This document shows, one piece after another, positions 1,313 through 62,114 of a DNA stretch of 64,000 bases (the stretch's first letter is position 1; the number at the start of each line of letters is the position of its first letter). The translations under genes were made by a program, and so were the position numbers. The stretch is from assembly GCA_039621445.1 (NCBI GenBank), contig CP154954.1:19454642-19518641 (forward strand), read 5' to 3'. The notes below the pieces were generated by a model, which made no database searches, was not told where the DNA came from, and saw nothing but the letters and a program-made list of their open reading frames with translations. This stretch comes from Euglena gracilis. Its lineage: Eukaryota.

Positions 1313-3055
1313 CGGACAGAGGATGGTCTGATTGTTGTGAGCTCTCAAAAGGAGGCGTATGACCTGGATGCTGCTGATGGAGTTCTTGACGGAAAGTATT
1401 TTGGGGCCGAGGTACGTTGCGCTGCTCTGAGTGAGCTTTCTGCATTTTATGCAAAATTCTTTATCCATTCATATTTTGTGGAAAGAAATCATAGCTGGCA
1501 GCTCGTTCAAAATGAAGCCAAAAAACGTTGTTCTTGTTTTAAAAAAATGCTTTTTATTAAACAAAAAAAACAAAAGAGGGACATTTTTTTACTGTATGAA
1601 TTTGACCAAAAATTATGTGTTTTTGAAGCATTTTGACCCATTTCAACCTTGCAACCAAGGCAAATGTGGTCTGATTGTTTTTTTTGCTACCTTTTTTTAT
1701 TTTTAAAAAACAGTTTTTTTTAAAAAAATGCCAGCTATGAAAGAAGGTAAGTCAAGGAGCATCATGGCAGGACGGGTGCAGGCTTCTTTTTCATGAAATT
1801 CGCACCTCTGGGGGGTGCTATGGGCAGAGGGGGGGGGCATTTTTGACCCCCTGGGGGTTGGGGTTAGGGGTGGCACCCCCCTTCATTGTTGCAGTACAAC
1901 CCCCCCCCCCTGACGCCGAAGGTGCTGGCCTAAAAATGACCTTTTTCACGCGAAAATTGGCTTGGTCGGCGACTGACCTCCGGGGTGGGGGGGGATGCCT
2001 GTTGCAAAAAAATAAAGCACACAGTTCAAGCAACATTTTTTTTTGCATTGTGGCTGAATATCATTGAGGCATAATTGGTCAGTATTGAAGTTCACACTCT
2101 CTCTCAGATTGCGGTAACTGCGCCTGGAAGTTACACTCAAACAAAGGAAGTTCCCCCTCCTCCTCCAGTATGTTATCTCTCTTCATTATGACATATGGTG
2201 TGGCCACTGCCACCACAATGCGTGTTCTCCTTTCTTGGTTGGTTTTGTGTGCATTTTTATTTCAAGGGTCTATGTTGCGTCCAACCCCCTGTCTTGGGTG
2301 GTAAATGCATTTTTTTTTAATGCCAAAGAAAAGAGAAAGGAAAAGACGCAGGAATCAAAGCAAAAGACAACACACAAACCAGTGACGACAACGCAGCCCC
2401 GAATTAATGCACTGTTTTGCAAAGCTTTCATATCGTGGAGTGCACCCACTCCAAGGCCCCGAACGAGGCATTTTTTTTTAATGATTCGGTTCTCTTGTAC
2501 TTGTGTGTGTGTGCGTGTGTGTGGGGGTGTGTTGAGCTGAAGTGGTAGCATTTTGTGCTGTACAATAAGAAACTAATTCATCATGTACAACCAAAGAATA
2601 TCAAGAGAAAACTTCAATAACAAACTTCAAAAATGAAGCTAACTAGGGGCAGGAGTGGAGTGTTGCGTGGGATACACACAGCTGTCTTTTTTCAAATTTC
2701 CTTTTTCAGAATTAAATGTTTTCGGTGAAGAATTTGTTTTTCCCCCAAGAAGATATGAACCAGAAGATTTCTCAATGTCATCCCCACGAGGGTTCACGCC
2801 CCCCTCTTGACCCAAATGACCCCCGAAAAGTGTGCAAACCCCGAGCCCCCACTCTTCCCCAAGGTAGGGGGGTGTTTGGGGTAGCCGGTTTTCCGTTCCT
2901 GAAAAACCATTGGCCTGGACTATTTGTATGAGAACACACAATACGCACGAGAACCATTGGATGTGGATTTCATTTTTTGGTGTTTTTTTTCCTTCTTTCT
3001 CTGTTGGGTTTTCTCTCTCTTTAGTCTCTTTGTATTTTTTTGATATATATAATGT

Positions 3056-3144
<89 letters not shown>

Positions 3145-3183
3145 GAGATAGATAGATAGATAGATAGAGAGATAGATAGATAG

Positions 3184-3232
<49 letters not shown>

Positions 3233-3941
3233 TCTATATATAGATATATATCTATGTATATATATCTATGTATATATGTATATATATATCTACATACACA
3301 TACATACATACATACATACATACATACATACATACATACATACATACATACATACATACATACATACATACATACATACATACATACATACATACATACA
3401 TACATACATACATACATACATACATACATACATACATACATACATACATACATACATACATACATACATACATACATACATACATACATACATACATACA
3501 TACATACATACATACATACATACATACATACATGCAAACATATGTATCAAGATCAGGTTTCATTATTTAATTTGGAATTTTCCCTCCCATGCAAGGTGTT
3601 TTGGGTGTGTGGGTGCCCAGCCCTAAACCCATCGCTTGTGCCAACGCCCAGCCCCAAACCGAGACGTCTGTTTACGCATGTCGTGGTCCTGGTTTCTCGC
3701 TTGAACTGGTGTCTTGGACACGGTTGTTGAAGCTGTGCACAAGGTCCACTTGTTTCACACCCGAAGTTTAATGAAGGAAGTGAACAAGAATGGAGTGTGC
3801 AGAGGAGACGTCGCTTAAAGGGGATTTTAAGACTCCAGGTGGGGGTGCTTTCCATGGTCATTTTTGTCAAGAACCGGTTGTAGTAAATTGGGTTGTAACC
3901 AGTTTTATCAAGAACCGGGTTGTACAATTAAAAATGGTGCA

Positions 3942-3973
<32 letters not shown>

Positions 3974-6900
3974 ATACACGCCCACACAAAAGTGAAAGAA
4001 AAAGCAAATTTGATTTGAGGCCAAATTTGATTTGAGGCGTTTATTGTTTGTGCATGATTGTGTATGGGGCCACTGGCTTTGCACCCATGGGATGGGCAGC
4101 CGTGGCAGCAGTGGAAGGGACATGAAGCTGGTGTCTTGTTGGGTTTCACTGTTTGAAGAAATGACTGAGGCGGAAAAAGTGCAACATTCAGAGGTGAAAT
4201 GCGGTTCGCATTTTTTTCCCGCAGTTTTTTCGCAGTTTTTTTTGCGCTTTTTTCAAATGCTCATTTTTGCAGAATTCTTCGCTTTTTTGCATCTTCTATT
4301 TGTTTTCCAGCACATTTTTTTTGCTTTTTGGCACATTTTTTTTGCTTTACCTGTTTTTTTTTGCATTTTTTGGACCATTTTATTTATTTATTTATTTGAG
4401 TTTTTTGAAATTTTTTTGAAACCTTGTAGATTTGGGGTCTTTTTTTTTGCATGTTTTGGGCATTTCTTTTTGCATTTTCGTGATTTTTGCGCCTTTTCTA
4501 TTAGTGTTTGCAAATTTCTGCACATATTATTATTAATATCATCCTTCCCAAACAGCCAAAATCGAGGAAAACTGGTGAAGAAAAAAATGGACCTGAAAGA
4601 CCCAAAGCGGCCGGCCCAAAATGGTCAGCAACCAGAAATGGCTCAAAGTGTCCTAAAAAAGCAAATTGTGGCCCAAAATAAACCCAAGGGTGAACAGTTG
4701 GCCCAGAACGGCCCAAATGGTTCAGAAAGGCCTCGAAGCCATCAGAAATTGGCTCAATCTGCCAAAAATAGCAATTTTCGGGATTAAATGGTTTGAAATC
4801 CTCAAAAATTGCAAAATTTTATTATTGTTCAAAATATTTGTCCCCAGAAAGTGCCCATGAGGCGGACCCACCCAAGGACCACTGGCCGAAACCAGCCGAA
4901 AATTGCGCTACTGTTGTTGATAACACCAATATGTCATCATACATGCCAAACTTAAAGACGGTTTGCCATATTTGTTGACATAGAAAAATAATTTTAAACA
5001 TTTAAAATGCCCCACTTCCCCCCAACTCAATGGCGGTGGTATTTGGCAGCGCCACCCCACCTCCGCTGCTGAGCTCTCCCATCGCCTCTCTCAGCCGGAG
5101 CCAGTTCACCAACCCGCCCCAGCCGTCCAGGCGGTTCAGACCAGGGTGTTGCTTTAGAAAATTTGACCCACTCCTGGGGTCAAATACCAGCCAGCAGCCT
5201 TTTTCCAGACAGCAGCCTATTTCTAGCCCGGAACCCCCCTCCCCCCCCCCAATCAACGACTTTTATTTATCCCCAGCTGCCCTTCGAGCAGCTGGACGGT
5301 ACCGTACTTTTCGATTTCGGGGGGCACAAAAATGGGTCCAAAAACGGGTAAAATTGGAAAACAGCTGCCCAGGACATTTTTGGGGTTCAAAAAAAATCGT
5401 TTTTGCATAATTGGAAGTTTTTTTTATTATGTCTTTGCGATTTCGATTTTTGGTACCCGGTTTAACAAGTTGAGCCCAGCTCCAGCCGGGACCCCTAGGG
5501 GAGAGAGGGGGTCAGCCAGCAGCCTTCTTTCAGCCAGCTCAAATTTTCCAGCCTCTGAGCTGACCCCCGGGGTCCTCAAGCAACGTCCTGGTGCAGACCA
5601 CCGTGGTAGAGCAGGTGCAGCAGGCCGTCGCCCAGCCCGTGGTGGCCACCGCTGCGCCGGCTGTGCCCGTCTCACCTGCGCCTCCGCTTTCCCGCGAATT
5701 TTCTTGGTTGGTGATGCGGGCATAGGGTTTGAGGGGTTTGTTCCCCCCCCACCCCCTTGCTCAAAGTTCTCAAAGTGCTGGCCAGGGACCAAATGCAATT
5801 GCCCCCACGGTGGATCAGTCGAGAAATCCTCCTGAATTGGTATTGTGAAACAGGCAAGGAGGATTTCCAACCCTTTTTCAGTTCTTGTATGGAACCTATG
5901 TTACATTTCTAGTTTACGTATATTATGAATGATGGTGTCAAACCTCACAGCTGGGATGACCCGGCTGATTTTAGGTGGGGGGGTGGACCTCCCACCAGGT
6001 TTCCCATTCAGGTGGGGGAAGTCCACGGGGCTCTTCCTGCGTCTCAGCCCTCGCACTGTGTTTCATTCCTCAATGGTGTGTGATCCACACATCCACACAC
6101 TGCATGCACACTTCTGAGTCAAACTGAGGTGTGGATGCGACCCGCTACTGCCGCGTAGCCCCCGATGGGTCGCCTCTGCCATGCACCTGCCATGGAACAC
6201 ACAGCACCACCGTGAACGTTGTCGCCCCGCCCCCAACTCCGCCGCCTGCTCAGCAATACACTTGTATCCCCACGCCGGTATCTCCCCTCCTGGAAACCCC
6301 ATGATATGAACTGAACGAATTCTTTACTGGAACACAGTAACGTTTTTTTTGCGCCTTTTTTATGCGTTTTTTGATTTTGGTGACTTTTGTGGACATTGTT
6401 TTGTGTCGTGTTTTTCGGGTTGCGAGGGTAAAGCTCCGTGAATATAAACTCCATTTTCTTCATTCCGTTTTCTTAACCGTGTTGGCGGATTCTTTTCAAA
6501 AACTGTTTCATTCGACAATGCCTTCGACAAAGATATGATGCAGCAACACGAAGTCAGCAACAAAAATTTCCGAGGGAGGAAACGGAATGGGAAGGGGTTA
6601 TTTTCAGCAGCGGTGTTCCCCCCTTCAGTGGCCTGATGACCAAAGCTGCCACCGTCCAGCAGCGGGCATTCGACTGCCCCCATTCCCCTCTTCCCCACAG
6701 GTGGCGCAGCCCCTGCCGGCGATGCCCCGGCTGGCCCTGCCCGCCGCACCCCCGGTGCAGTACGTCGCCGCCCCCCGGCCGGTGCGCCTCGTCCCCGCCT
6801 CCCCCCGGCTGCGGTACGTCGCGCCCGCCCCACCCGTCCAGTACGCCATTCCCTTGCCCCGGGCCCAGTACGTCGCGGCTGCCCCGCCCTTTCAATACGT

Positions 6901-8126
6901 CGCCCCTCCCCCGCCGGTCCAGTACATTGCCGCTGTCCATACAATCGGCTTTTGCCTTGCGGCGGGTTTCTGCTGGCTTCCGTTTGCCCTGGAAGACATT
7001 CTCCACGAACGGTGACCTTTGGATGGTTTTGTATTTGTGTAAAAGCGGGTGATTTCTCCCACCTTAATTTCTCCTGCCGTAACCCCGAACCAGAAGCTTT
7101 GAATTCTTTTTTTGGGGTGGACTGTTCATCCCGCCCAAAGTCAATGAGTGATTTATGATACATAGAAAGAAGCGGCCCCCTCTTGAAGCTGAGCCATTGC
7201 ATGGCTCTGCCCCTCCCCCACCGCCGGTGCAAACCATCCAGTATGTCGCCAGCACAACGACAGTGCAGACCCCACCGCTACACACTGGGTACAGCTACGC
7301 CCAGGGGAACGTCGTGCCCATGGGGAACAAAGCTGTTGAAGTTGAGCAGGTATTAATTTCTCCCTGTTTAAGGGGATCGCAGACCTGGAAGCCACCAAGG
7401 TCAGATAAGGCCAGCAAGTCGTGCTTTGGCTTTCTTCAATTTCCGCAGATTTCTTCAGGTCTCTAAATTCCCGGTTGGCTTCCCACCCTCTCCCGATGTC
7501 ATTCCTGACACTAACCCCCAACCCCAACCCAACCCAAACCAAAAAATGATCCCTACCCTGAATACGTTTGAATGCCTGTCTGTGCTGACCATATGCGTGA
7601 AAATGTCACAATTTTGTTATTTCAGATGCTTTTTCTGGCAAAAAATACTGGAAAGTATGCAATATGTATTTAAAAAGGTACACGTCTACATGTTTAAAAC
7701 ATGTGTGTACATGTGCATAAATTTATCTATATCTTTGCACATGTTTCTATGTGCACTGTCCCCCTTCCTAACCCATCCCCCCGGTCCCAATCCCCGCCGG
7801 TTGTGTCACATGTGGCCCCCCCCCCCCGCCCGCAGACCTCCGCCTCCGTCCTGGTCCCGGCCACCGGCGCGCCGCCCGCCGTCCCGCCGGCCGCCACGCT
7901 GCCCCCGCCGACCGGCGCGGTGCGCTGGGAGTGGGCGAACGGCACCGGCATTGCGGGTGGCAACACCAACTTCGACTACCGCCCCGTCAAGCTGGACGAC
8001 ACCCCCATGGCCTCGTCCTTCATCCCGGCCGCCGGGTCCAACCTGCCCCTGGCGTTTGGCTCGCAGAACGTGCACGTGCCTGGGATGGGCCACAGGCTGC
8101 AGTTGTCAACGGTTCATCACTGGTGA
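1313..8126 (+). CDS. Multi-exon gene (5' end probably upstream of the window) for a Pro/Val/Ala/Gln/Tyr-rich low-complexity protein with VQYV(A)P repeats; possibly a pellicle/cytoskeletal (articulin/epiplastin-like) protein
   Basis: Exons joined in frame: 1313-1411 (AG|RTEDGLIVVSSQKEAYDLDAADGVLDGKYFGAE|GT), 5095-5138 (PEPVHQPAPAVQAV), 5596-~5668 (QTTVVEQVQQAVAQPVV...), ~6131-6277, 6701-6934 (VAQPLP...PVQYVAAP...), 7209-7349 and 7836-8126 (TGA). Canonical introns are 6278-6700 and 7350-7835; non-conventional introns are 5139-5595 and 6935-7208. Extra exons between 1412 and 5094 are possible. The function is inferred from composition only. Confidence 0.7.
3056..3532. repeat. Compound microsatellite (TAGA)n-(TA-rich)-(TACA)n
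   Basis: Direct reading. Confidence 0.97.
5139..5595 (+). other. Non-conventional intron formed entirely by a TIR element
   Basis: GAC+CAGGGTGTTGCTTTAG...CTCAAGCAACGTCCTG+GTGCA. Removal gives GTT CA|G ACC (AVQTT) in frame. The borders are not GT-AG. Confidence 0.8.
5142..5590. mobile_element. hAT-like MITE (CAG...CTG TIR, 8-bp TSD)
   Basis: TIR of about 16 bp; TSD GTTCAGAC/GTGCAGAC (7/8); the right half is similar to the copy at 50600-50840. Confidence 0.85.
6935..7208 (+). other. Intermediate-type intron (GT start, non-AG end, paired ends)
   Basis: 5' gtCCATACAATCGGC pairs with 3' GCCATTGCATGGctct in the +4/-6 register. The junction IAA|APPPP is in frame. Confidence 0.65.
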
Positions 8127-8554
8127 GAGGTGGTGGGAGCAACTTAGAGACTAAACTCAAAGCCCTGAGGCTCTTTGCCATTTCCTAATTGCTGACCATC
8201 AATGAAGTCTTATTATCACTCTGAAGGTTCAAGAAAAGTGATGGGCATTGGTGAATGAAAATCACACGCCATCGTTTGCAATGGTGTTGGATGATCACAC
8301 CCCCAGATCCAGTCCTCCGGCAAACCATCACCCCATTATCTTTTTTATTTTCCTAGTTTCGAGTGCTCCAATTTTCACCCTCCTCTGTTCAATTGCACAA
8401 AATATGGTCCCATTCCGTCGCCAAAGCCTTTTCGCTCCGCTGAGCTGTGAGCCTGTCTCAACCGTTCCCATCCCCCATCCCTCTGGTTTACCTGTTAGCC
8501 ACAGCCGTTCGCACGTATCCTGCCCACAGGTGTGTTTCATTGAATTTCATGCAC

Positions 8555-9182
<628 letters not shown>

Positions 9183-11024
9183 AAAGGATTTCAATATTTT
9201 TGTGAACTGCTTTAAGACACACATGTATACCGCTCCATTGCCCTGGGACCTCAAGCCGCGATCCAGATATCTGCTTGCGCCACTCAGCAGCATCATTTCC
9301 TGTGGTGGGAGGGGACATTTTCTGCAGTGGTAGTGTGGCAGCCATACCACCATCAATCCTTGCGTTGGATGCCTGCGGGGATGCGATTGCATATTTTTTG
9401 CATTGAATATTTTTTTTGCATTGCATCCGCCTTGCCCCTGATGATATGAGAAGCAGAGGGCTCAGCGGCATTGGCTCACCGTCCACACTCCCCCACACGT
9501 ATTCCCCCACACGTTCCGCTCAGGGGGACCAGTGCCACCGGGAAATATTTTAGTTTTTCTTTAAGTTCTTTTTTTTATTAGATTATGTATTTATAGTTTA
9601 TATGTTTATTTTGTACCCAACACACAAACCCCACCACACGCCCCCCCCTGCCACGCAACCCCATCCCCCCCACCGCGTGCACACCACACACCTCCACAAC
9701 CCACCTCCGCCCCCCACCCTTCTACATTTATATTTCCCCCACACGTCCGCTCAGGACCAGTGAGGGCCTAGACTGCGAATGCACCATTGCAATACTGTGC
9801 GGTCCCTTCAGACGTGCGTGCATTCTCCTGCTTGTTTAATAAATTTGGAAAGCACAACGCCGGCCGTTGCTTAATCGTCTTCAAGGTGGGGTTTGAAACG
9901 TTTGTCAGATCAGAGGGAGGTGTGGATTCCCCCCCTCCGGCTTGGGGGTGTCCGGACCACAGGGAACAATTCACAGTAACCAGGGACCTCTGGGAAACTT
10001 GACGTCTTTTGGTTTTACCCTTTTGGAAGTTGACCAGGAGCGTTCCCCATCCATTGAACAGGAGGATAGACCAGCAGAAGGTGTCCATCGGCTGACGACT
10101 CCATGGTGGACTTCGAGCCCCACGGATGTGTTCCACTCGATCTTTGGGGGGTATTCTGGGCAGCATCGAATGGATAAGATACGGTGGCTGGCGGCGGTTA
10201 ACGGTATGCACCACGCGCCCGCCACGCAGGGGTACCAGTGCAACAAGAAGGGGGCTGAGCAATGAAGTGTGCAAAACAGAGCAGACATGGCGAGGTTGCC
10301 GTTTCTTTTGATTTAATCTCACGATCTTCGTTGCAATGGGCCGGCAGGGACAGGGAAGGCCTTTTGATATCTCTGCCCTGAGGGGTTGGTTTCGGGTCGG
10401 ATGTTGCAAAGTTGCAGATCACTGAGGCTGAAGTTGCGAGGACCCAAAAGTGGCGATTTTGAAGGAATCTGAATGGTTTCGGACCAGTCTGGATCCAAAA
10501 ACCTGCCCCCTCCCCACTGGGGGGACAGTCAATACAGAAGGCACCCCCCTCCCTCTCGGGGCCGGCAGAAGCCTGGCGGTTCCTTCAGCAAAGACCCAAG
10601 TTCGTCAGTTTGCGATCCCCCAGCTCAGGTGGAGGGGAGGGGGCAGGAATCAGGCTTGTGCTTAGTCGGGTGCCTACCCCACGGGGGGGGGGGGGGGCTA
10701 GGGACAGGCACGCCATAGCCCCCGATCCGCCCCCCCCCCCCGGGCGGTGGGGGGTAGGGTTTTGGGGGGTGCCTGCCCCTAGCAGGCACCCCCCCTCCCC
10801 GGCGCCTTCGGACCTTCTCCGGCCTGGAAAAGCCCATTTTCAATGAAAATTTTCTGGGTCCCCCCGGACCCCTATCCCCGGGGGGGGGGGGTGCCTGCTA
10901 GGGGCAGGCACCCTATAGCACCCACCCACCCCCCTCCCCCCCCGGTTGGTAAGCACAAGCATGGCAGGAATGATGCTGTCTGGGCTGCAGGGGAGGCATT
11001 GGCGGTCTGGCTTAGTCTCAGTGT

Positions 11025-11075
<51 letters not shown>

Positions 11076-11239
11076 ATGCGTGGGGTGTGGTGTGTGTGGC
11101 GGGGGGGGGGGTGGGGGGTCTGCCACAGCGAAAGGGACAGGATTTGACAGCGACTCCCAGCCGGGTTCATTCACCACTGGGCCCAGCGTCAACCGTGGTT
11201 CCCCTTCCCCTCCTCAACCAGCTCCTTCCTCCTCGGCCC

Positions 11240-14200
11240 ATGCTGCTCTCCGCCCCGGCGGCTGACCGCCGGTGCGGCCCCCTCCTCGTCTCTCTCCTGG
11301 CGGTGGGTTGCGTTCTGAGCACGCCACGGCCTGTGGGTGAGCCATGGAACACGGGAGAACCGGAATAAAATATCCAAAAGACGGCAAATGTCAGTATCAA
11401 TATCAAATATCAAATATCAATATCAATATCAAAAAGGGTGAAACCCCAATGATGTAAGTCTTGGCGGGAACATCAACCTGGTGTCGGCACCTCCGGAGTT
11501 CCAAAATTTGTCATGCAAGAAAGTCCACCTCCCCAAATGAACCAATCAGTGGAGAGTAAAACATCGTTCCCTTCTTTTACTTGCCTTTCTGACTCTTTTT
11601 TTTCCCGACACAAAAGCTTGTGCAATGATCGTGCATCAACCTTGGGGGGGTTGAGGGGTCATTGAAATTGACATGTTGAGAAGTTGCGATGGGTTTTTTT
11701 TTATTCTGTTCTTTGGAACCACAGACATCCCTTCAAATTGACCTCGACCAAGCAGCAAACTGCACACGCAGTGGTGTGGCCGAAATCATTTCTTCTGGAC
11801 GGGACTCTTTGGCGGCAGGCTGTTTTCAATGGTCATCCCTCACACACTGTCTGCTCTGCCAGCAAAAAGCCTTTGTGGATGGCTTTGGCTGAATACCCCA
11901 CCGCCCAGGAAAATTGGCTTTTCTAGGAAACCAGCCTCTGCCCTCTGTATTCGTTAATCTGTCCTCATAGGGACCTGCACTTGCTTACCTGTGTCCATCC
12001 ACATTTTTTCAAGTTGGTCAAGCTGCGAGCATGCCTGGACACTTTCTGATGCGTGGCATTTTCGCTTGGCAATGCCAGCCTGCCTTCCCGTCCCCCAGCA
12101 CGGAGTTGGCCGCTGGCCTCCCTCCCGCCGTACCGCACACCGGGAACGTTGGCACCGCCCGCCTGATGGTTCCGGGTGAGCGTGGGGAACCAGGCTGTGC
12201 TGTGCGCATTGCTCGTTTTTTGACACCCTATCCCACTGTGTGCGGAGTTCGTTGGATTTCTCAAAACAGCCCGCGAGTTGGCGCCGGATTGCTTTCCCAA
12301 ACCTCGCTTTGTGCCCGCGTGATCCGCGTGGACTGTTTGGAGGCGCTCCGGCCTGGACGGGACCGCGGGATTTCCGACGAGTGGGTCCACCGCCGGCCGC
12401 ACTGAACGGGGAAGGGCCCCCTGGCCACAATCCTCGGCCCAAACAGCTCTGTGCTGCCATGCCCACCAACTGAACGAGGCACCTTTTTTTCGCACTTCCC
12501 AAGAAATCTAAGTTGCTCCAACGAACACGAAAGTGCGACACCACGGCCCGGGTCCCAGAAGAGTTGGCATCCTGACTTTTGTTCAGGCTCCGTAGATGCA
12601 CCGCCCGGTTACCCAGGCCTCTTTGGAAACCAATCTTGTTGAACCTGACTGGAGGTTTTTTTCTTTTTGGCATTGATCATACGGTGGAGATGATCTGCGG
12701 TTAATTCAAGGACTGGGGTTAGGGTTCAGATTGCATCCCCTCAGTGGAACCTGTTTTCCTCTACAGGGGCCCCAGCGAGGCCGAAGTGAGTGAAACGCCA
12801 CCCTTGTACATTTAACACAAGTTGGGTCACTCTTTGGGTTCACTGAGTACCCTGTAGAGGCAAATGGGCAAATTCATCATGAGGAAAGAGGGCAAAGTAT
12901 CTTTTTTTTAGTAAAAAATTCGCACACAAAACTGGTCCTCCCCGGAGGCTGGTGGTCTCCTTGGAGCGTTCTGCGCGTGACCGGCAGGATTCCATTTTGT
13001 TGTAGCCAAAAGACCTCAGCAAAAAAACACACACAAATGACAAAGTTGCCAGCAGGGTACCTCCCCCCCCCCCATGCCTAATGAACACCCTTGCCCAATG
13101 AACAGGGGGTGTTCGGACCGTCTAGATTGTCACCATATACCTTATCTACACAGAAACTGTACCCAAAGCCCAATGAACACCCCCGTTCGGACCGTCTAGA
13201 TTGTGACCTTAGTGTTCATTGGGCTTGGGGGGGGGGGAGGTACACCCAACGTCTCAGTCAAGTTGGTCCGATGATGCGTTGCTTCCCCAATGCCGCGTGG
13301 TGTGTGGCGTGGCTTGCAAACTGAGTCGCTCCCGGGCTGCTCAAAGCCAATCAAAACCCTCCACTCCTCTGCGGATGAAAAAGAATCCATCCAGTTGAGG
13401 TTGCAATGGAGGAAATCTCCACAGAGTCCATCCCCAACTTAGACTTTTATTTTATTGAGAACCCCCAACTGGAAGGGGTCGACCCGCCCCTTTCCCCTGT
13501 CTGATTTTCCCCCTGCTTTAACACCCTCCCAAGTGTTTGCCACGCTTCACCTGAACCTCGTTCTCCCGTGGCCCTCCCTGCCAACGCCTGGGGTTTTACG
13601 CACAGGGCTGGTCCATTGGCCGGCTCACTGCCCTCTTCTCCGGAGTTTCTGCCCTCTGTGGAGTGGTGGCTGCCCTCACGTTGGCGGTCCGCAAGTCGCT
13701 GCCCTCCCGCCAGCCCGACCAGGGAGAGGCCGACACAGCACCACATGTTTTTTTTTGGTTCATTTTTCCATTTTTTTTTTATTGTGCAAAGAGGGGCTTT
13801 GAATTGTGATGTATAGCATCAAATGCATTTTGATGCAGATCCATCTTTGCCAACATGAGAGGAGCCCTTAGCTACTTTCTTAGGGTGCTACTCCCCACCG
13901 ACCAAGCATTTTCATCTCAGGGTGTTAACAAGGGTGTAGGGCACTCATTTGCCCCCATCTGGACCATTTCTGGAAGATTTGAAGATTTGCGATATGTTTG
14001 GTTCCAAATTTAGTGCAATACTAATTGCTGGCGTGGCATCCTGCTCCTCAGAAGCTGGGCTGGGACTTGGAAGAAGGAAGTGAAAGCAATTTCTTTTTGC
14101 TTGGCTGAGTGCGTGCTGGGGTTAATTTCTGATGCCCATGGCACCGAATTTCTGGGAACTAATTGCACTGATTCTTCTGCACTTTCTTTAACACATCTGA

Positions 14201-17200
14201 CAACCCATTGAGGAACTCTTTAAAATTGCGTTGAGCTTTCCACCTGGAGGAGTTGAGCTCCTGACTGTCGATGAATGGTGTGGAAAATCCTCCCATTTCA
14301 CCCAAAGGAGCCAGCCATTCCCTAACTTGCCTCATGCAAACTTTGGGGGGCACCCACCCCCAGCCCCGTCTGCCAGCCCCCTGAGGCAGTTGCAAGTTGC
14401 CCAAGCCAGTTCTACCGTATTGCGTTCTTTGTGGGAGTGGTTTTTTTGAAAAAACATTTTGGCCCCAACTGCGGCCCCGAGGTGGGGTCTCCGCTATTGT
14501 GACTTCCACCGCAGCTGGGGGAAATCCCAGCCAGACCCCTCCTCCGCCCTGTGGCAACAAGCGCCCTGACCTCCCCCTGCGCAGGGTGAACCGCACGGCG
14601 GGGGACGACGGGGGGCGTTGGCCTCGTTGGTCGCCGCGGCGGCCGCCCCCTTGTTAGTGCACCGAGGGCAGGACCACCAGGACTGACGGAGGGCGTCCCT
14701 CGTCGCTTCCCACTTCACAGCCTCATTTCTTACGTGCATTCCGGTCCACCGCGGGGTTTGGCAGCCAACTATTTGTAAAATGCCAATTTCTGCCAATTTA
14801 CTTTGGGAAAGGACCTGCTCGCCATCTCCAGTTTCGCCGTCACCAGTTGGCTCGCCCTCGGTTTTGCTTGTTGACCGTCAGTGTTCGAGTTGGCTCTCGC
14901 CTTTCAGACCTGCCCCCCCCCCCCCTGTTTGCGGGGCCCGGCGTGTCCCCAGGGAGGTGCCCCGCCTTCGTTCGGCTCGCCGGTTCTGCCCTCCGGCCCT
15001 CCCGCAGCCGACGCCATCGTGGGCGGGGTGGACGTCTCCGCCGCCGAGGCCGCCAGCGTTGGCGCGGTGGGCCTCTACATCGGCCAGGCCCGGACATGCA
15101 GCCCCGAACACCTCCCGGACGCATCGGGCACGCTTGCGTTCCCGTTGCCATTTCACCGGCCTTCCACCACAGGCCAGTTCTCCAGACAGCCCCACCCCCC
15201 CAACACGCCACTGGGACGTGCTGGGGCGTGCGTGGTGACCTGGCGGGCTGCACCGTATGCCGCAAACAGGCTGACCCTCATCCTGTCCTCCCTGGGAGGC
15301 AGGCGGGCTAATTTGGCCAAAAGTGGAACTTCAGCGCTGAAGCCCTGGAGGCCTTTTGGCGATATTGTTTTGATTGAGGGTATGTCTTCCTTAGCACCCG
15401 AAGGACCCACAGGCGCCCCTCTGGGAATTTCTAAGCCCCGTCCCTGGGGAGGAGCCCCCACCCCTGGGGGAGTCCAGCTAGCAGCTTTTTTTCCAGCACC
15501 CCCCCCCCTGGGAGTCAGGTGGAAACAAAGTCAGTCATCACAGCCCCACGAAGCCGGGCTGGACCGAAAAAAAATGGACGTTTTGAAAATCAATTTCAAA
15601 AAGGTGAAAGATTGGCATTTTTGAGCATTTTTGAGGTTATCACCTCAAATCTTTGGCCAACAGTTTCCAACCCAGGTGGGTTTGGTCTTTTTTTGCCCGT
15701 TTTTGGGCACCACCTGGGTCCAGCCTGGTATTTGGTTGGACCCACCCCCCTGGACCACCCCCCTAGGGGGTCCAACAGCATGTTTTTATTCCCCCAGCAA
15801 GCACCATTTTCCAGCCAGACCTCCACCTCAAGGTCCTCAAGAAATTCCCTGCCCTGGATCCTCGACCAGCCTGGCGGGAAGGACGTCCCCGCCACCTGCA
15901 GTGGGACGCTCATCGCTCCCAACCTCGTCCTCTCCGCAAAGCACTGCATCGACATCAGCACTCAGCTGAATGCCAAGCTCACCAAGATCGTCTTCTCCCC
16001 CAATCTGCTGGACCCCTCCCAGAGCTGTTATTCTGCTCACCTTTTCCGACCTAACTTTTGGTGCGCTACCAAAAAGACGCGTGGCTGATTTCTTCAGCAT
16101 GCTCCCTGAAGGGGTTGACCTTCGCGAGTCGGAACATTCACATAGGGTCGGCATCCACGCAGTGCTGAATGTGGCGTACCTTAACTTTGGCAAGCCCAAC
16201 GTTACTTTCTTTCTTACTTACTTACTCAGCTCAGATGTTGAGTCACTCAGAATCAAAAATCTTTGCTTTCAGGGGTTGCCCTGGCGACCCGACCCCAACC
16301 TACATCATCTGTGACACCACAAATAGTGAGTCGCCTGCCCCCCCCCCCCCCCGTGTCCAACGAACACCCTGTTCGGACCATAATTTTTGCCACCGTAAGT
16401 AAAATTTTGCCTGTTCGGAACCCCTTTGTCCAATGAACACACCTGTTACACTGTTGAGTGCACGTGCCTGTGTGCGCTATGTTTGTCGGTGTGTGCGTGA
16501 CGTGCGTCTGCGTGTATGTGCGCGCGCACGCGCGCAAGTTGTATTTGCGTTTTGTATGTATTTGCGCATATTCTGCGCCTGTCATTTTGACCCAATCCCC
16601 TCCCCTCCGTCATGGCACACCAGTGCATTTCCGGGGCATCCCCCTGCCGCCAACAGCCCTTCCGGCAACGCCCCGGCCCGGGAGGTGGACAAGGTGGTCT
16701 CCACCACCGACTACGGCATCGACCTGCAGGGCAACGACCTCGTTCTGATCCGCATCAAAGACAGGCAATCGCTTGTTTGACACCCCCAAGGCTGAATGCG
16801 GTGGGCAGTCGGGTCGTGGTCGCCCCTTCTGATGCCCCATCATTGTCATTTTGGCTGCATTTTTTTTTATTGTGACTCATTTGTCTCACAGGACAAAAAT
16901 GACGGGGAAAAATGATGGGAAGTTTTTGAGTTTGGAAAAATCGATGATGGGGAAATTACCACAATTCACAGAAAATTGTGGTGATTTCTCCCACTTTTGT
17001 GGAGATTTTTTTTTGGAAAAAGGCAGTTCAACGTTAAATAAAAAAACTGGTCAAAATGGTCTTCTGGGTGTCTTTTTTGCTTTTTTTTGTGACATAACAA
17101 TCCCAAAGTCTCATCCCAACTGTTTTATCACCCCTGAATGTGGCTCCTCCAAAACGGCGTGGAAAGGGTGTGGGGATAAAATGGCGGGAAAAATGAATGG

Positions 17201-19997: not shown

Positions 19998-62114
<42,117 letters not shown>

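What the first reader, a model, noticed from the sequence alone, without database searches (positions are those of the whole stretch)
5095..5668. Direct example 1: a 449-bp MITE in mid-exon is removed in frame
The exon after a clean polypyrimidine-AG acceptor (5095) reads PEPVHQPAPAVQAV. It is interrupted by GTTCAGAC[CAG...CTG]GTGCAGAC and resumes QTTVVEQVQQ. Excising 5139-5595 joins GTT CA|G ACC. The one TSD mismatch (T/G) is at a synonymous Val third position. A sister element at 50600-50840 lies inside another intron, showing the intron sequence is a dispersed mobile repeat.
Basis: seen in the sequence. Interest (0 to 1): 0.88.

Follow-up and report, generated by a model that had tools for sequence, protein, structure and literature searches.

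The report
MITE-derived nonconventional intron, confirmed in RNA
A 449-base transposon-like insert inside a protein-coding exon is cut out of the messenger RNA exactly, together with one copy of its 8-base target duplication, following the non-standard splicing rule already described for Euglena, so it is a clean worked example of a known but poorly understood kind of intron.

Summary
A 449-bp element (5142-5590) has terminal inverted repeats (CAGGGTGTTGC.../...GCAACGTCCTG) and a 7-of-8 direct repeat, GTTCAGAC/GTGCAGAC. It splits an open reading frame on the + strand. Public RNA data show a 457-nt skip, which is the element plus one repeat copy. The skip is in two RNA-like contig sets and in 35 raw RNA-seq reads, and in 0 contigs of a DNA-like run. 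None of the eight compatible cut positions gives GT/GC-AG. Cutting at 5139-5595 fits the published Euglena nonconventional-intron code exactly: N3-CAG ... CTG-N5, then a purine. It also fits the E. gracilis consensus CCAGG/CCTG. The intron ends pair strongly. The same transcript mixes GT-AG introns that have C-rich pyrimidine tracts with other nonconventional introns. A shorter sister copy (50600-50840) has its own 8-bp duplication, and DNA reads show that parts of the element are highly repeated. This is a euglenid-type nonconventional intron that still carries the hallmarks of a MITE, probably hAT-like. The class is known, and a MITE origin is a published hypothesis. I found no paper showing a member of a dispersed repeat family with an intact 8-bp target duplication. 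Circular excision, the organism's name and the sister's intron location remain untested.

The parts
2138..2167 (+). [quoted passage not shown]
   Evidence: The loose-end consensus before 5095 (34 X21 reads, plus X1 and X2 contigs) matches here with 0 mismatches. The frame stays open across 2167|5095.
2168..5094 (+). Conventional GT..AG intron (2927 nt) with a C-rich pyrimidine tract
   Evidence: GTATGT at 2168 and ...CTCTCTCAG at 5094. The 25 nt before the AG hold 12 C and 7 T.
5095..5138 (+). First part of the split exon (PEPVHQPAPAVQAV + CA of the Gln codon)
5134..5141 (.). Target-site duplication, copy 1 (GTTCAGAC)
   Evidence: (D4).
5139..5595 (+). Nonconventional intron (457 nt): GAC-CAG ... 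CTG-GTGCA, followed by G
   Evidence: 457-nt skip in RNA, absent from the DNA run. It is the only + strand cut that meets the N3-CDG..CH'G-N5-6|R code. The code is taken from PMC12501133.
5142..5590 (.). 449-bp MITE-like element, GC 0.51, longest M-to-stop ORF 86 aa
5142..5157 (.). Left terminal inverted repeat (CAGGGTGTTGCTTTAG)
   Evidence: I1. The stem appears in both the MFE and the centroid fold. Duplex energy is -24.5 kcal/mol against -10.5 +/- 2.9 for shuffles.
5575..5590 (.). Right terminal inverted repeat (CTCAAGCAACGTCCTG)
5591..5598 (.). Target-site duplication, copy 2 (GTGCAGAC)
5596..5672 (+). Second part of the split exon (G of Gln, then TTVVEQVQQAVAQPVVATAAPAVPVS)
5673..6137 (+). 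Next intron, also nonconventional (465 nt, CA..TG). It does not fit the strict code and its terminal pairing is weak.
   Evidence: Joint 5672->6138 in X1, X2 and 55 X21 reads, and 0 in X20. (fraction of shuffles at least as stable: 0.38).
50600..50840 (.). Shorter sister copy of the same element family (241 bp), with 8-bp repeats at 50592-50599 and 50841-50848. Its 5' end is CCG, not CAG.
54300..54377 (.). Fragment related to the 5' subterminal part of the element (75% over 84 nt)

Best explanation
The window comes from a euglenid-like nuclear genome. A non-autonomous DNA transposon inserted into a coding exon and duplicated 8 bp of target. It is a MITE, probably hAT-like. The gene still works because the pre-mRNA is processed by the nonconventional intron pathway described in Euglena.

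In that pathway the element's inverted ends (CAG...CTG and beyond) pair in the RNA and bring the two junctions together. The RNA is cut 3 nt upstream of the CAG and 5 nt downstream of the CTG. The 3 + 5 nt of spacer add up to one copy of the 8-bp duplication. The mRNA therefore regains what would have been the sequence of the uninterrupted exon.

Shown here:
- the anatomy of the element;
- its removal from RNA but not from DNA;
- its fit to the published code;
- the terminal pairing;
- related copies elsewhere in the window.

Inferred: the exact cut among eight equivalent positions, the transposon superfamily, the machinery (unknown in the literature and thought to be non-spliceosomal), and the host taxon.
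For: RNA: a 457-nt skip at 5136->5594 in X1 (depth 455), X2 (281.6) and 35 X21 reads from 30 starts, and in 0 X20 contigs. X20 contigs cross both element borders (records 15 and 17).

Frame: open for 321 codons across six junctions, with the stop at 8448. Retaining the element gives a stop after 5 codons.

Splice sites: none of the 8 compatible cuts has GT/GC..AG.

Code: cutting at 5139-5595 gives N3=GAC, CAG at +4..+6, CTG at -8..-6, N5=GTGCA, and G as the next exon base. This is the code in PMC12501133. CCAGG at +3..+7 and CCTG at -9..-6 match the E. gracilis consensus in PMC11170887.

Pairing: the terminal duplex is -24.5 kcal/mol against -10.5 +/- 2.9 for shuffles, and 0 of 300 shuffles reach it. 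The whole-intron fold has z = -3.99, with the terminal stem in both MFE and centroid.

Context: of 12 RNA-supported introns between 2 and 14 kb, 3 are GT..AG with C-rich tracts (12-17 C of 25) and 9 are not GT/GC..AG. Seven of those 9, and 0 of the 2 GT..AG introns tested, have terminal pairing stronger than at least 96% of shuffles.

MITE hallmarks: 8-bp repeats matching 7 of 8 in both family copies. The window holds 4 elements with CAG..CTG inverted ends (at least 10 of 12) and 8-bp flanking repeats (at least 7 of 8). About 0.07 are expected among 163 inverted-end pairs, and slid controls give 1, 0, 0, 0.

Copy number: DNA-run word depth is 2,290 and 11,948 in the two bins over the element, against about 37-59 in most other bins. 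In X20, 20 and 15 records diverge at 5187 and 5562.
Against: The cut position cannot be read from the data, because 7 letters are shared.

X1 and X2 are only guessed to be RNA, and X20 is only inferred to be DNA from its even depth.

The RNA and DNA runs come from different studies. A strain difference at this site is therefore not formally excluded.

Only 2 of the 9 nonconventional joints meet the strict published code, fewer than the 61.2% reported for E. agilis. The second code-type intron (12188-12360) has only 4 of 8 matching flanking bases by my own reading.

The family evidence in the window is two copies and one fragment, at about 75% identity, so this is not a recent burst. Summed contig depth is not a copy number.

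Confidence: 0.85

Rival explanations
1. The RNA comes from an allele or strain that never had the insertion (an empty site). The 457-nt 'skip' would then be a DNA polymorphism, not splicing.
For: Removing the element plus one duplication copy gives exactly what an empty site would look like. The RNA runs (X1, X2, X21) and the DNA-like run (X20) belong to different studies. Position 7880 differs between the RNA runs and X20, so strain or allele differences do exist.
Against: X2 holds a 207-nt contig from the single-copy interior of this element (5302-5508, 0 differences). It also holds a contig that crosses the unspliced 5672 border. The element therefore exists in that material. Eight other non-GT/AG skips in the same transcripts are likewise absent from X20, and they cannot all be polymorphisms. 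The element fits a splicing code that has been proven by knock-in.
Confidence: 0.04
2. The element is removed by the ordinary U2 spliceosome using non-canonical sites. This has been proposed for MITE-derived introns of Fritillaria and discussed for Amoebophrya and diplonemids.
For: The literature has not identified the machinery for Euglena nonconventional introns. Conventional and nonconventional introns sit in the same transcript.
Against: None of the 8 possible cuts has GT/GC..AG or AT..AC. There is no pyrimidine tract before the 3' end (GGGGTCCTCAAGCAACGTCCTGGTGCA), whereas the three GT..AG introns here have C-rich tracts. Published knock-in data show dependence on CAG/CTG pairing and on fixed spacers.
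Confidence: 0.07
3. The intron is not a DNA transposon insertion. Its inverted ends and flanking repeat would be features selected for, or created by, the nonconventional pathway itself, for example by re-insertion of excised intron RNA circles.
For: Inverted ends are functionally required for splicing (and abstract), so selection could maintain them. Short direct repeats flank 84.4% of all E. agilis introns, conventional ones included. Circular excised introns are reported.
Against: The sister copy at 50600-50840 has its own 8-bp repeat, although its 5' CCG end breaks the published code. Three further elements of another family carry 8-bp repeats matching 8 of 8, 8 of 8 and 7 of 8. This pattern is typical of cut-and-paste insertion.
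Confidence: 0.06

Closest known systems
Nonconventional (NC) introns of Euglena (code 5'-N3CDG-/-CH'GN5-6|R; Nomura et al. 2025, PMC12501133; E. gracilis consensus in Gao et al. 2024, PMC11170887; Milanowski et al. 2014, PMC3935182)
   Same: It has no GT-AG ends. CAG sits at +4..+6, CTG at -8..-6, and a purine starts the next exon. The ends pair. A direct repeat makes the border 'slidable'. It shares a gene with GT-AG introns. Its length is near the published mean of about 520 nt.
   Different: Nothing in the splicing features differs. What is added is that the intron body is a member of a repeated family with an intact 8-bp flanking duplication. The papers I read propose this origin but do not show it. 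They say 'origins remain unclear' and speak of 'TSD-like' repeats.
Introners of Micromonas, Aureococcus and dinoflagellates (Huff et al. 2016 and later work; seen here only as cited in PMC11282704 and PMC7789003, details recalled)
   Same: DNA transposons with inverted ends and target duplications create introns on insertion into exons.
   Different: Those elements supply or co-opt GT..AG sites and are removed by the spliceosome. Here no compatible cut has GT/GC..AG.
Introner elements and non-canonical introns of Amoebophrya (Farhat et al. 2021, PMC7789003; passages read)
   Same: Those introns have non-canonical borders, 8-20 nt inverted repeats forming a hairpin, and direct repeats overlapping the junctions. 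Nuclear-gene GC is similar (54-58%).
   Different: Direct repeats there are 3-5 nt and splice positions vary relative to the hairpin. Mean lengths are 120-240 nt. Here the repeat is 8 bp, the spacing is the fixed 3/5 of Euglena, and introns reach 2.9 kb with large microsatellites.
MITE-derived non-canonical introns of Fritillaria borealis (Henriet et al. 2019; seen only as cited)
   Same: Many non-canonical introns there are attributed to MITE insertions.
   Different: They are thought to be removed by a modified U2 spliceosome and have other border patterns (a preceding exonic TAC). No CAG/CTG spacer code is described.
hAT-superfamily MITEs and maize Ds acting as an intron (Giroux et al. 1994, seen only in the reference list of PMC3935182; hAT features recalled, from no call)
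   Same: The target duplication is 8 bp and the ends begin with CAG(GG). The duplications of both family copies fit the recalled hAT target pattern nTnnnnAn.
   Different: No transposase partner could be looked for. Ds is spliced imprecisely by the spliceosome, whereas here removal is exact.

Membership tests
Euglenid nonconventional intron | Removed from mRNA although no compatible border pair is GT/GC..AG | tested here: met
   the 457-nt skip is in RNA and absent from the DNA-like run. The 8 possible end pairs are CA..TG, AG..GC, GA..CA, AC..AG, CC..GA, CA..AC, AG..CC and GG..CA (read).
Euglenid nonconventional intron | Three spacer nt, then CDG (usually CAG) at +4..+6 | tested here: met
   GAC-CAG at 5139-5144.
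Euglenid nonconventional intron | Complementary CH'G (usually CTG) followed by a 5-6 nt spacer | tested here: met
   CTG at 5588-5590, then GTGCA.
Euglenid nonconventional intron | Purine as first base of the downstream exon | tested here: met
   G at 5596.
Euglenid nonconventional intron | Intron ends pair and bring the junctions together | tested here: met
   A 15-bp terminal stem appears in both MFE and centroid, z = -3.99. Duplex energy is -24.5 against -10.5 +/- 2.9, with 0 of 300 shuffles reaching it.
Euglenid nonconventional intron | Excised as a full-length circular RNA, after the conventional introns | not tested
   Reported in the literature (review passage).
Euglenid nonconventional intron | Host is a euglenid | tested here: inconclusive
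   No genome or organism name is available. Indirect support: conventional and nonconventional introns are mixed, the pyrimidine tracts are C-rich as reported for E. gracilis, and the borders match the CCAGG/CCTG consensus. Rfam found nothing.
MITE (non-autonomous inverted-repeat DNA transposon) | Terminal inverted repeats | tested here: met
   (14 of 20).
MITE (non-autonomous inverted-repeat DNA transposon) | Flanking target-site duplication of fixed length | tested here: met
   8 bp, 7 of 8, in both family copies. P is about 4e-4 per pair.
MITE (non-autonomous inverted-repeat DNA transposon) | Short, with no transposase gene | tested here: met
   449 bp, longest M-to-stop ORF 86 aa. That ORF was not searched against protein families.
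MITE (non-autonomous inverted-repeat DNA transposon) | Many dispersed copies | tested here: inconclusive
   The window holds two copies and one fragment. High DNA word depth and 15-20 diverging contigs at subterminal segments point to many copies, but depth is not a copy count and no genome is held.
MITE (non-autonomous inverted-repeat DNA transposon) | Evidence of mobility (insertion polymorphism, empty sites) | not testable with these tools
   No genome or population data are available. X20 shows no empty site.
hAT superfamily | 8-bp target duplication and short inverted ends starting with CAG (features recalled) | tested here: met
hAT superfamily | Autonomous partner encoding a hAT transposase with matching ends | not testable with these tools
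   No genome is held.
Spliceosomal Introner elements | GT/GC..AG splice sites supplied by the element or its duplication | tested here: not met
   The GT(5134)..AG(5596) pair would remove 463 nt. RNA shows 457.

The most novel reading that the evidence does not exclude
The fixed spacers of the Euglena nonconventional splicing code (3 nt before CAG, 5 nt after CTG) may exist because they add up to the 8-bp target duplication made by CAG-ended, hAT-like MITEs. On this reading, nonconventional splicing is an RNA-level copy of precise transposon excision. Any such MITE landing in an exon, in either orientation, would be erased from the mRNA at once, leaving the original reading frame. Most of the 'slidable' nonconventional introns would then be MITE insertions. 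The unknown machinery would recognise transposon ends and might itself derive from transposon or hairpin-processing enzymes.
Probability: 0.35. Interest if true: 0.75.

Novelty: new member of a known kind. Interest (0 to 1): 0.45.

Why it matters
Nonconventional introns make up more than half of all introns in Euglena: 71.8% in E. agilis and about 57% in E. gracilis by the counts. Their origin is still called unclear, and their removal machinery is unknown. This locus still shows all the marks of a transposon insertion: inverted ends, an 8-bp duplication and a related copy elsewhere. It also obeys the proven splicing code and is removed in real RNA.

It suggests a simple genome-wide test of the MITE hypothesis. 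One would cluster nonconventional introns into families and measure the flanking repeats. It also suggests why the code has a 3 + 5 nt spacing. It is one locus, and it extends a published hypothesis rather than overturning anything.

Tried and rejected
1. My first guess was a spliceosomal intron from GT(5134) to AG(5596), 463 nt and also in frame. I rejected it because RNA shows a 457-nt skip and keeps GTT-CAG.

2. A search of the window's own genome for further copies failed because no genome is held.

3. In the run index, no RNA holder is listed. The laid runs were X1 and X2 (RNA only by guess), X21 (RNA-seq raw reads, about 5% of the run read) and X20.

4. A scan of metagenome contigs with a degenerate pattern of the family's conserved subterminal core gave 0 hits.

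5. Rfam gave 0 matches at gathering threshold over the whole window.

6. Earlier findings by place, sequence and words returned nothing.

7. Pfam found no family for two exons of the host gene, so the gene product remains an unnamed P/A/V/Q-rich protein.

8. I tested ORF continuity across the three other 8-bp-duplication elements. It was uninformative, because most frames are open in this GC-rich DNA.

9. I asked whether 3 + 5 = 8 spacing holds for the other nonconventional introns. Measured from CAG/CTG it holds for 2 of 9 (5139-5595 and 12188-12360). My hand alignments of the others gave sums from 6 to 12, so it is not general in this small sample.

10. Back-splice (circle) reads and RNA over the sister element could not be examined, because the read laying cap is 1.

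11. Supplements of the Euglena papers were not opened. Their intron tables and the distribution of sliding distances could bear on the 8-bp claim.
Full report
**What is in the sequence**

On the + strand the frame starting at 5095 reads PEPVHQPAPAVQAVQ. It follows the acceptor-like ctctctcAG. At 5142 an insert begins with CAGGGTGTTGCTTTAG. It ends at 5590 with CTCAAGCAACGTCCTG (449 bp).

The two ends are inverted repeats. The repeat finder gives arms of 18 nt at 83%, and 14 of the first 20 positions match. The insert is flanked by GTTCAGAC (5134-5141) and GTGCAGAC (5591-5598), which match at 7 of 8 positions. At this base composition the chance of at least 7 of 8 is about 4e-4. The single difference is GTT versus GTG, both Val. 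If the insert were kept, the frame would stop at TAG 5155-5157.

**RNA evidence**

No genome is held for the window. I therefore used the run index and laid four runs on 4000-15000:
- X1 and X2 are contig sets whose depth follows exons. Their RNA label is only a guess.
- X21 is raw reads recorded as RNA-seq, of which about 5% was read.
- X20 has an even depth of about 37-59 across exons, introns and spacers, so it behaves as genomic DNA.

The joint 5136->5594 skips 457 nt. It is in one X1 contig (depth 455), one X2 contig (depth 281.6) and 17+18 X21 reads from 30 start positions. It is in 0 X20 contigs, and X20 contigs run across both borders of the insert.

Seven letters (CAGACCA) fit both sides, so the cut may lie at any of eight positions. 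I had expected a GT(5134)..AG(5596) intron of 463 nt, and the data exclude that.

Inside the insert, X1 and X2 show only low depth (about 3-10). This includes a 207-nt X2 contig identical to 5302-5508. The element is therefore present in that material and is removed from nearly all transcripts.

**Gene model**

The loose ends before 5095 (34 X21 reads, plus the X1 and X2 contigs) match 2138-2167 exactly, and GTATGT follows. Intron 2168-5094 is therefore a conventional GT..AG intron.

Joining the RNA-supported pieces gives one frame that stays open for 321 codons. It runs across 2167|5095, the insert junction, 5672|6138, 6276|6700, 6932|7207 and 7345|7832, and stops at 8448. Two more skips (8077->8423 across the end of the coding frame, 8521->9232 in the 3' untranslated part) complete the transcript.

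Pfam finds no family for two exons of this P/A/V/Q-rich protein.

**Kind of intron**

One search listed 15 joints; 148 more were not shown. Eleven of the 15 are RNA-only. Two of these are GT..AG and nine are not. With 2168-5094 this makes 3 conventional and 9 nonconventional introns.

The three conventional introns have C-rich pyrimidine tracts, with 12, 16 and 17 C in the 25 nt before the AG. I compared the first and last 24 nt of each intron with 300 shuffles:
- Seven of the 9 nonconventional introns pair better than at least 96% of shuffles.
- The intron at 5673-6137 (fraction 0.38) and the one at 12186-12358 (fraction 0.08) do not.
- The two GT..AG introns tested give fractions of 0.36 and 0.66.

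For the insert, the terminal duplex is -24.5 kcal/mol against -10.5 +/- 2.9, and no shuffle reaches it. The fold of the whole intron closes with this stem in both the MFE and centroid structures (z = -3.99).

**Comparison with the literature**

Nomura et al. 2025 (PMC12501133). I read the abstract and outline, passages and sections 5, 8 and 11.
- 71.8% of E. agilis introns are nonconventional.
- Short direct repeats make most borders 'slidable'.
- Knock-in tests define the code 5'-N3CDG-/-CH'GN5-6|R.
- The 5' spacer is intolerant to a change of 1 nt, and the 3' spacer is 5 nt, with 6 tolerated.

Cutting the present intron at 5139-5595 gives GAC-CAG ... CTG-GTGCA followed by G. This meets every element of that code, and it is the only + strand cut that does.

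Gao et al. 2024 (PMC11170887). I read the abstract and sections 10 and 6. For E. gracilis they report:
- CCAGG at +3..+7 and CCTG at -9..-6. Both are present here.
- C-rich pyrimidine tracts in conventional introns.
- Mean intron lengths near 520 nt.

Only 2 of my 9 nonconventional joints meet the strict code. That is fewer than the published 61.2%, but the sample is small.

From these features I infer a euglenid host, most like Euglena. This is an inference, because the organism is coded and Rfam gave nothing. Amoebophrya has similar GC and hairpin introns. However, its direct repeats are 3-5 nt, its cut positions vary and its introns are short (passages). Hemistasiid diplonemids have G/C-rich inverted ends (passages).

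**Is it a mobile element?**

A shorter sister copy lies at 50600-50840. Its ends are similar and it is 74.5% identical over 165 nt. It has its own 8-bp repeat, TTTCACAC/TCTCACAC. A fragment lies at 54300-54377.

In X20 the bins over the element reach word depths of 2,290 and 11,948, against about 40 nearby. Twenty and 15 records diverge at 5187 and 5562. Subterminal segments therefore occur in many genomic contexts, although summed depth is not a copy number.

I scanned the whole window for CAG...CTG ends (at least 10 of 12 complementary, 60-1600 bp apart) with 8-bp flanks matching at least 7 of 8. The scan finds four elements: this one, 22399-22659 (8 of 8), 40184-40455 (inverted ends 12 of 12, flanks 8 of 8) and 48112-48407 (7 of 8). 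Flanks slid outward by 8, 12, 16 or 20 nt give 1, 0, 0 and 0. About 0.07 hits are expected among the 163 inverted-end pairs. The last three elements belong to a second, related family with further partial copies.

An 8-bp duplication, ends beginning with CAG(GG), and the pattern nTnnnnAn in both family-1 duplications are hAT-like features. I recall these features; they come from no call. No transposase could be sought.

**Mechanism**

Shown here: the element, its exact removal from RNA, its pairing ends and its fit to the code. Taken from the literature:
- Pairing of the inverted ends is required for splicing.
- Nonconventional introns are removed after conventional ones and appear as full-length circles (review passage).
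- The machinery is unknown and is suspected to be non-spliceosomal.

My inference concerns the spacing. The cuts fall 3 nt before the left end of the element and 5 nt after its right end. The removed spacers therefore add up to one 8-bp duplication copy, and the mRNA regains the presumed pre-insertion sequence GTT CAG ACC.

I did not find this arithmetic link between the 3 + 5 spacing and an 8-bp target duplication in the sections and passages I read. The supplements were not open.

**Novelty**

Milanowski et al. 2014 proposed a MITE origin for these introns (passages). The 2024 Mobile DNA review repeats it and speaks of 'TSD-like' repeats (passages). Nomura et al. 2025 mention it while stating that the origins remain unclear.

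Six full-text searches found no paper showing a Euglena nonconventional intron as a member of a dispersed element family with a defined 8-bp duplication. The library lacks many subscription journals.

The finding is therefore a well-supported new example of a known class, and it gives direct support to a standing hypothesis.

**Open points**
- The cut position among the eight equivalents.
- Circular excision.
- Whether the sister copy lies in an intron. Its 5' end is CCG, which breaks the code, and a roughly 300-bp microsatellite follows it, so it is probably a passenger in non-coding sequence.
- Whether the RNA and DNA runs are the same strain.
- The name of the organism.

Noticed in passing
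window 22399-22659, 40184-40455, 48112-48407 (partial relatives near 49267-49520 and 53598-53806): Three more MITE-like elements have CAGG...CCTG inverted ends and 8-bp flanking repeats (8 of 8, 8 of 8, 7 of 8). They form a second family. In all three, and in the main element, the sixth base of the right-hand repeat is G, which is the purine the splicing code needs. No RNA was laid there, so it is unknown whether they are spliced.
   Followed up: partly
window 10606-10972: This G/C-run-rich repeat has a DNA-run word depth of about 287,000 against about 40 nearby. It shows variable internal deletions (joints 10688/10690/10692->10896) in both DNA and RNA runs, so it is a very high-copy family.
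   Followed up: no
window 12808-13541 and 4000-4733: Further high-copy segments show DNA-run word depths of 37,000-65,000 and 7,000-10,800. The first lies inside the 1174-nt nonconventional intron 12439-13612.
   Followed up: no
window 5673-6137, 6933-7206, 8078-8422, 8522-9231, 11317-11783, 11811-12089, 12186-12358, 12439-13612: Eight other RNA-supported introns lack GT/GC..AG. Only 12188-12360 meets the strict published code. Six of the eight still have significant terminal pairing. The intron at 11811-12089 has a perfect 9-bp stem (GGCAGGCTG/CAGCCTGCC) placed 3 and 5 nt from the cuts.
   Followed up: partly
window 6932->7207: This 274-nt skip is in the X1 and X2 contigs but in 0 X21 reads, although it is needed to keep the frame open. 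Possible causes are low sampling in X21 or variable splicing.
   Followed up: no
window 7880: C in the window and in the DNA-like run X20. T in all X1 and X2 contig depth and in 21 of 51 X21 reads. This is a strain or allele difference, or possibly editing.
   Followed up: no
window 8078-8422 and 8522-9231: The first of these two nonconventional introns ends 26 nt before the stop codon at 8448; the second lies in the 3' untranslated region and encloses a roughly 650-bp CA/CACA microsatellite.
   Followed up: no
window about 14660-16088 (+): A trypsin-like serine protease gene (Pfam PF00089, E = 1.8e-4, on the exon holding ...CSGTLIAPNLVLSAKHC...). RNA loose ends at 14660 continue into the IVGG-encoding exon beyond 15000.
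   Followed up: partly
window 31700-62500 (+): Many short exon-like frames with heptad-like, Q/E/A/L/R-rich text suggest a very long coiled-coil protein gene split by many introns and microsatellites.
   Followed up: no
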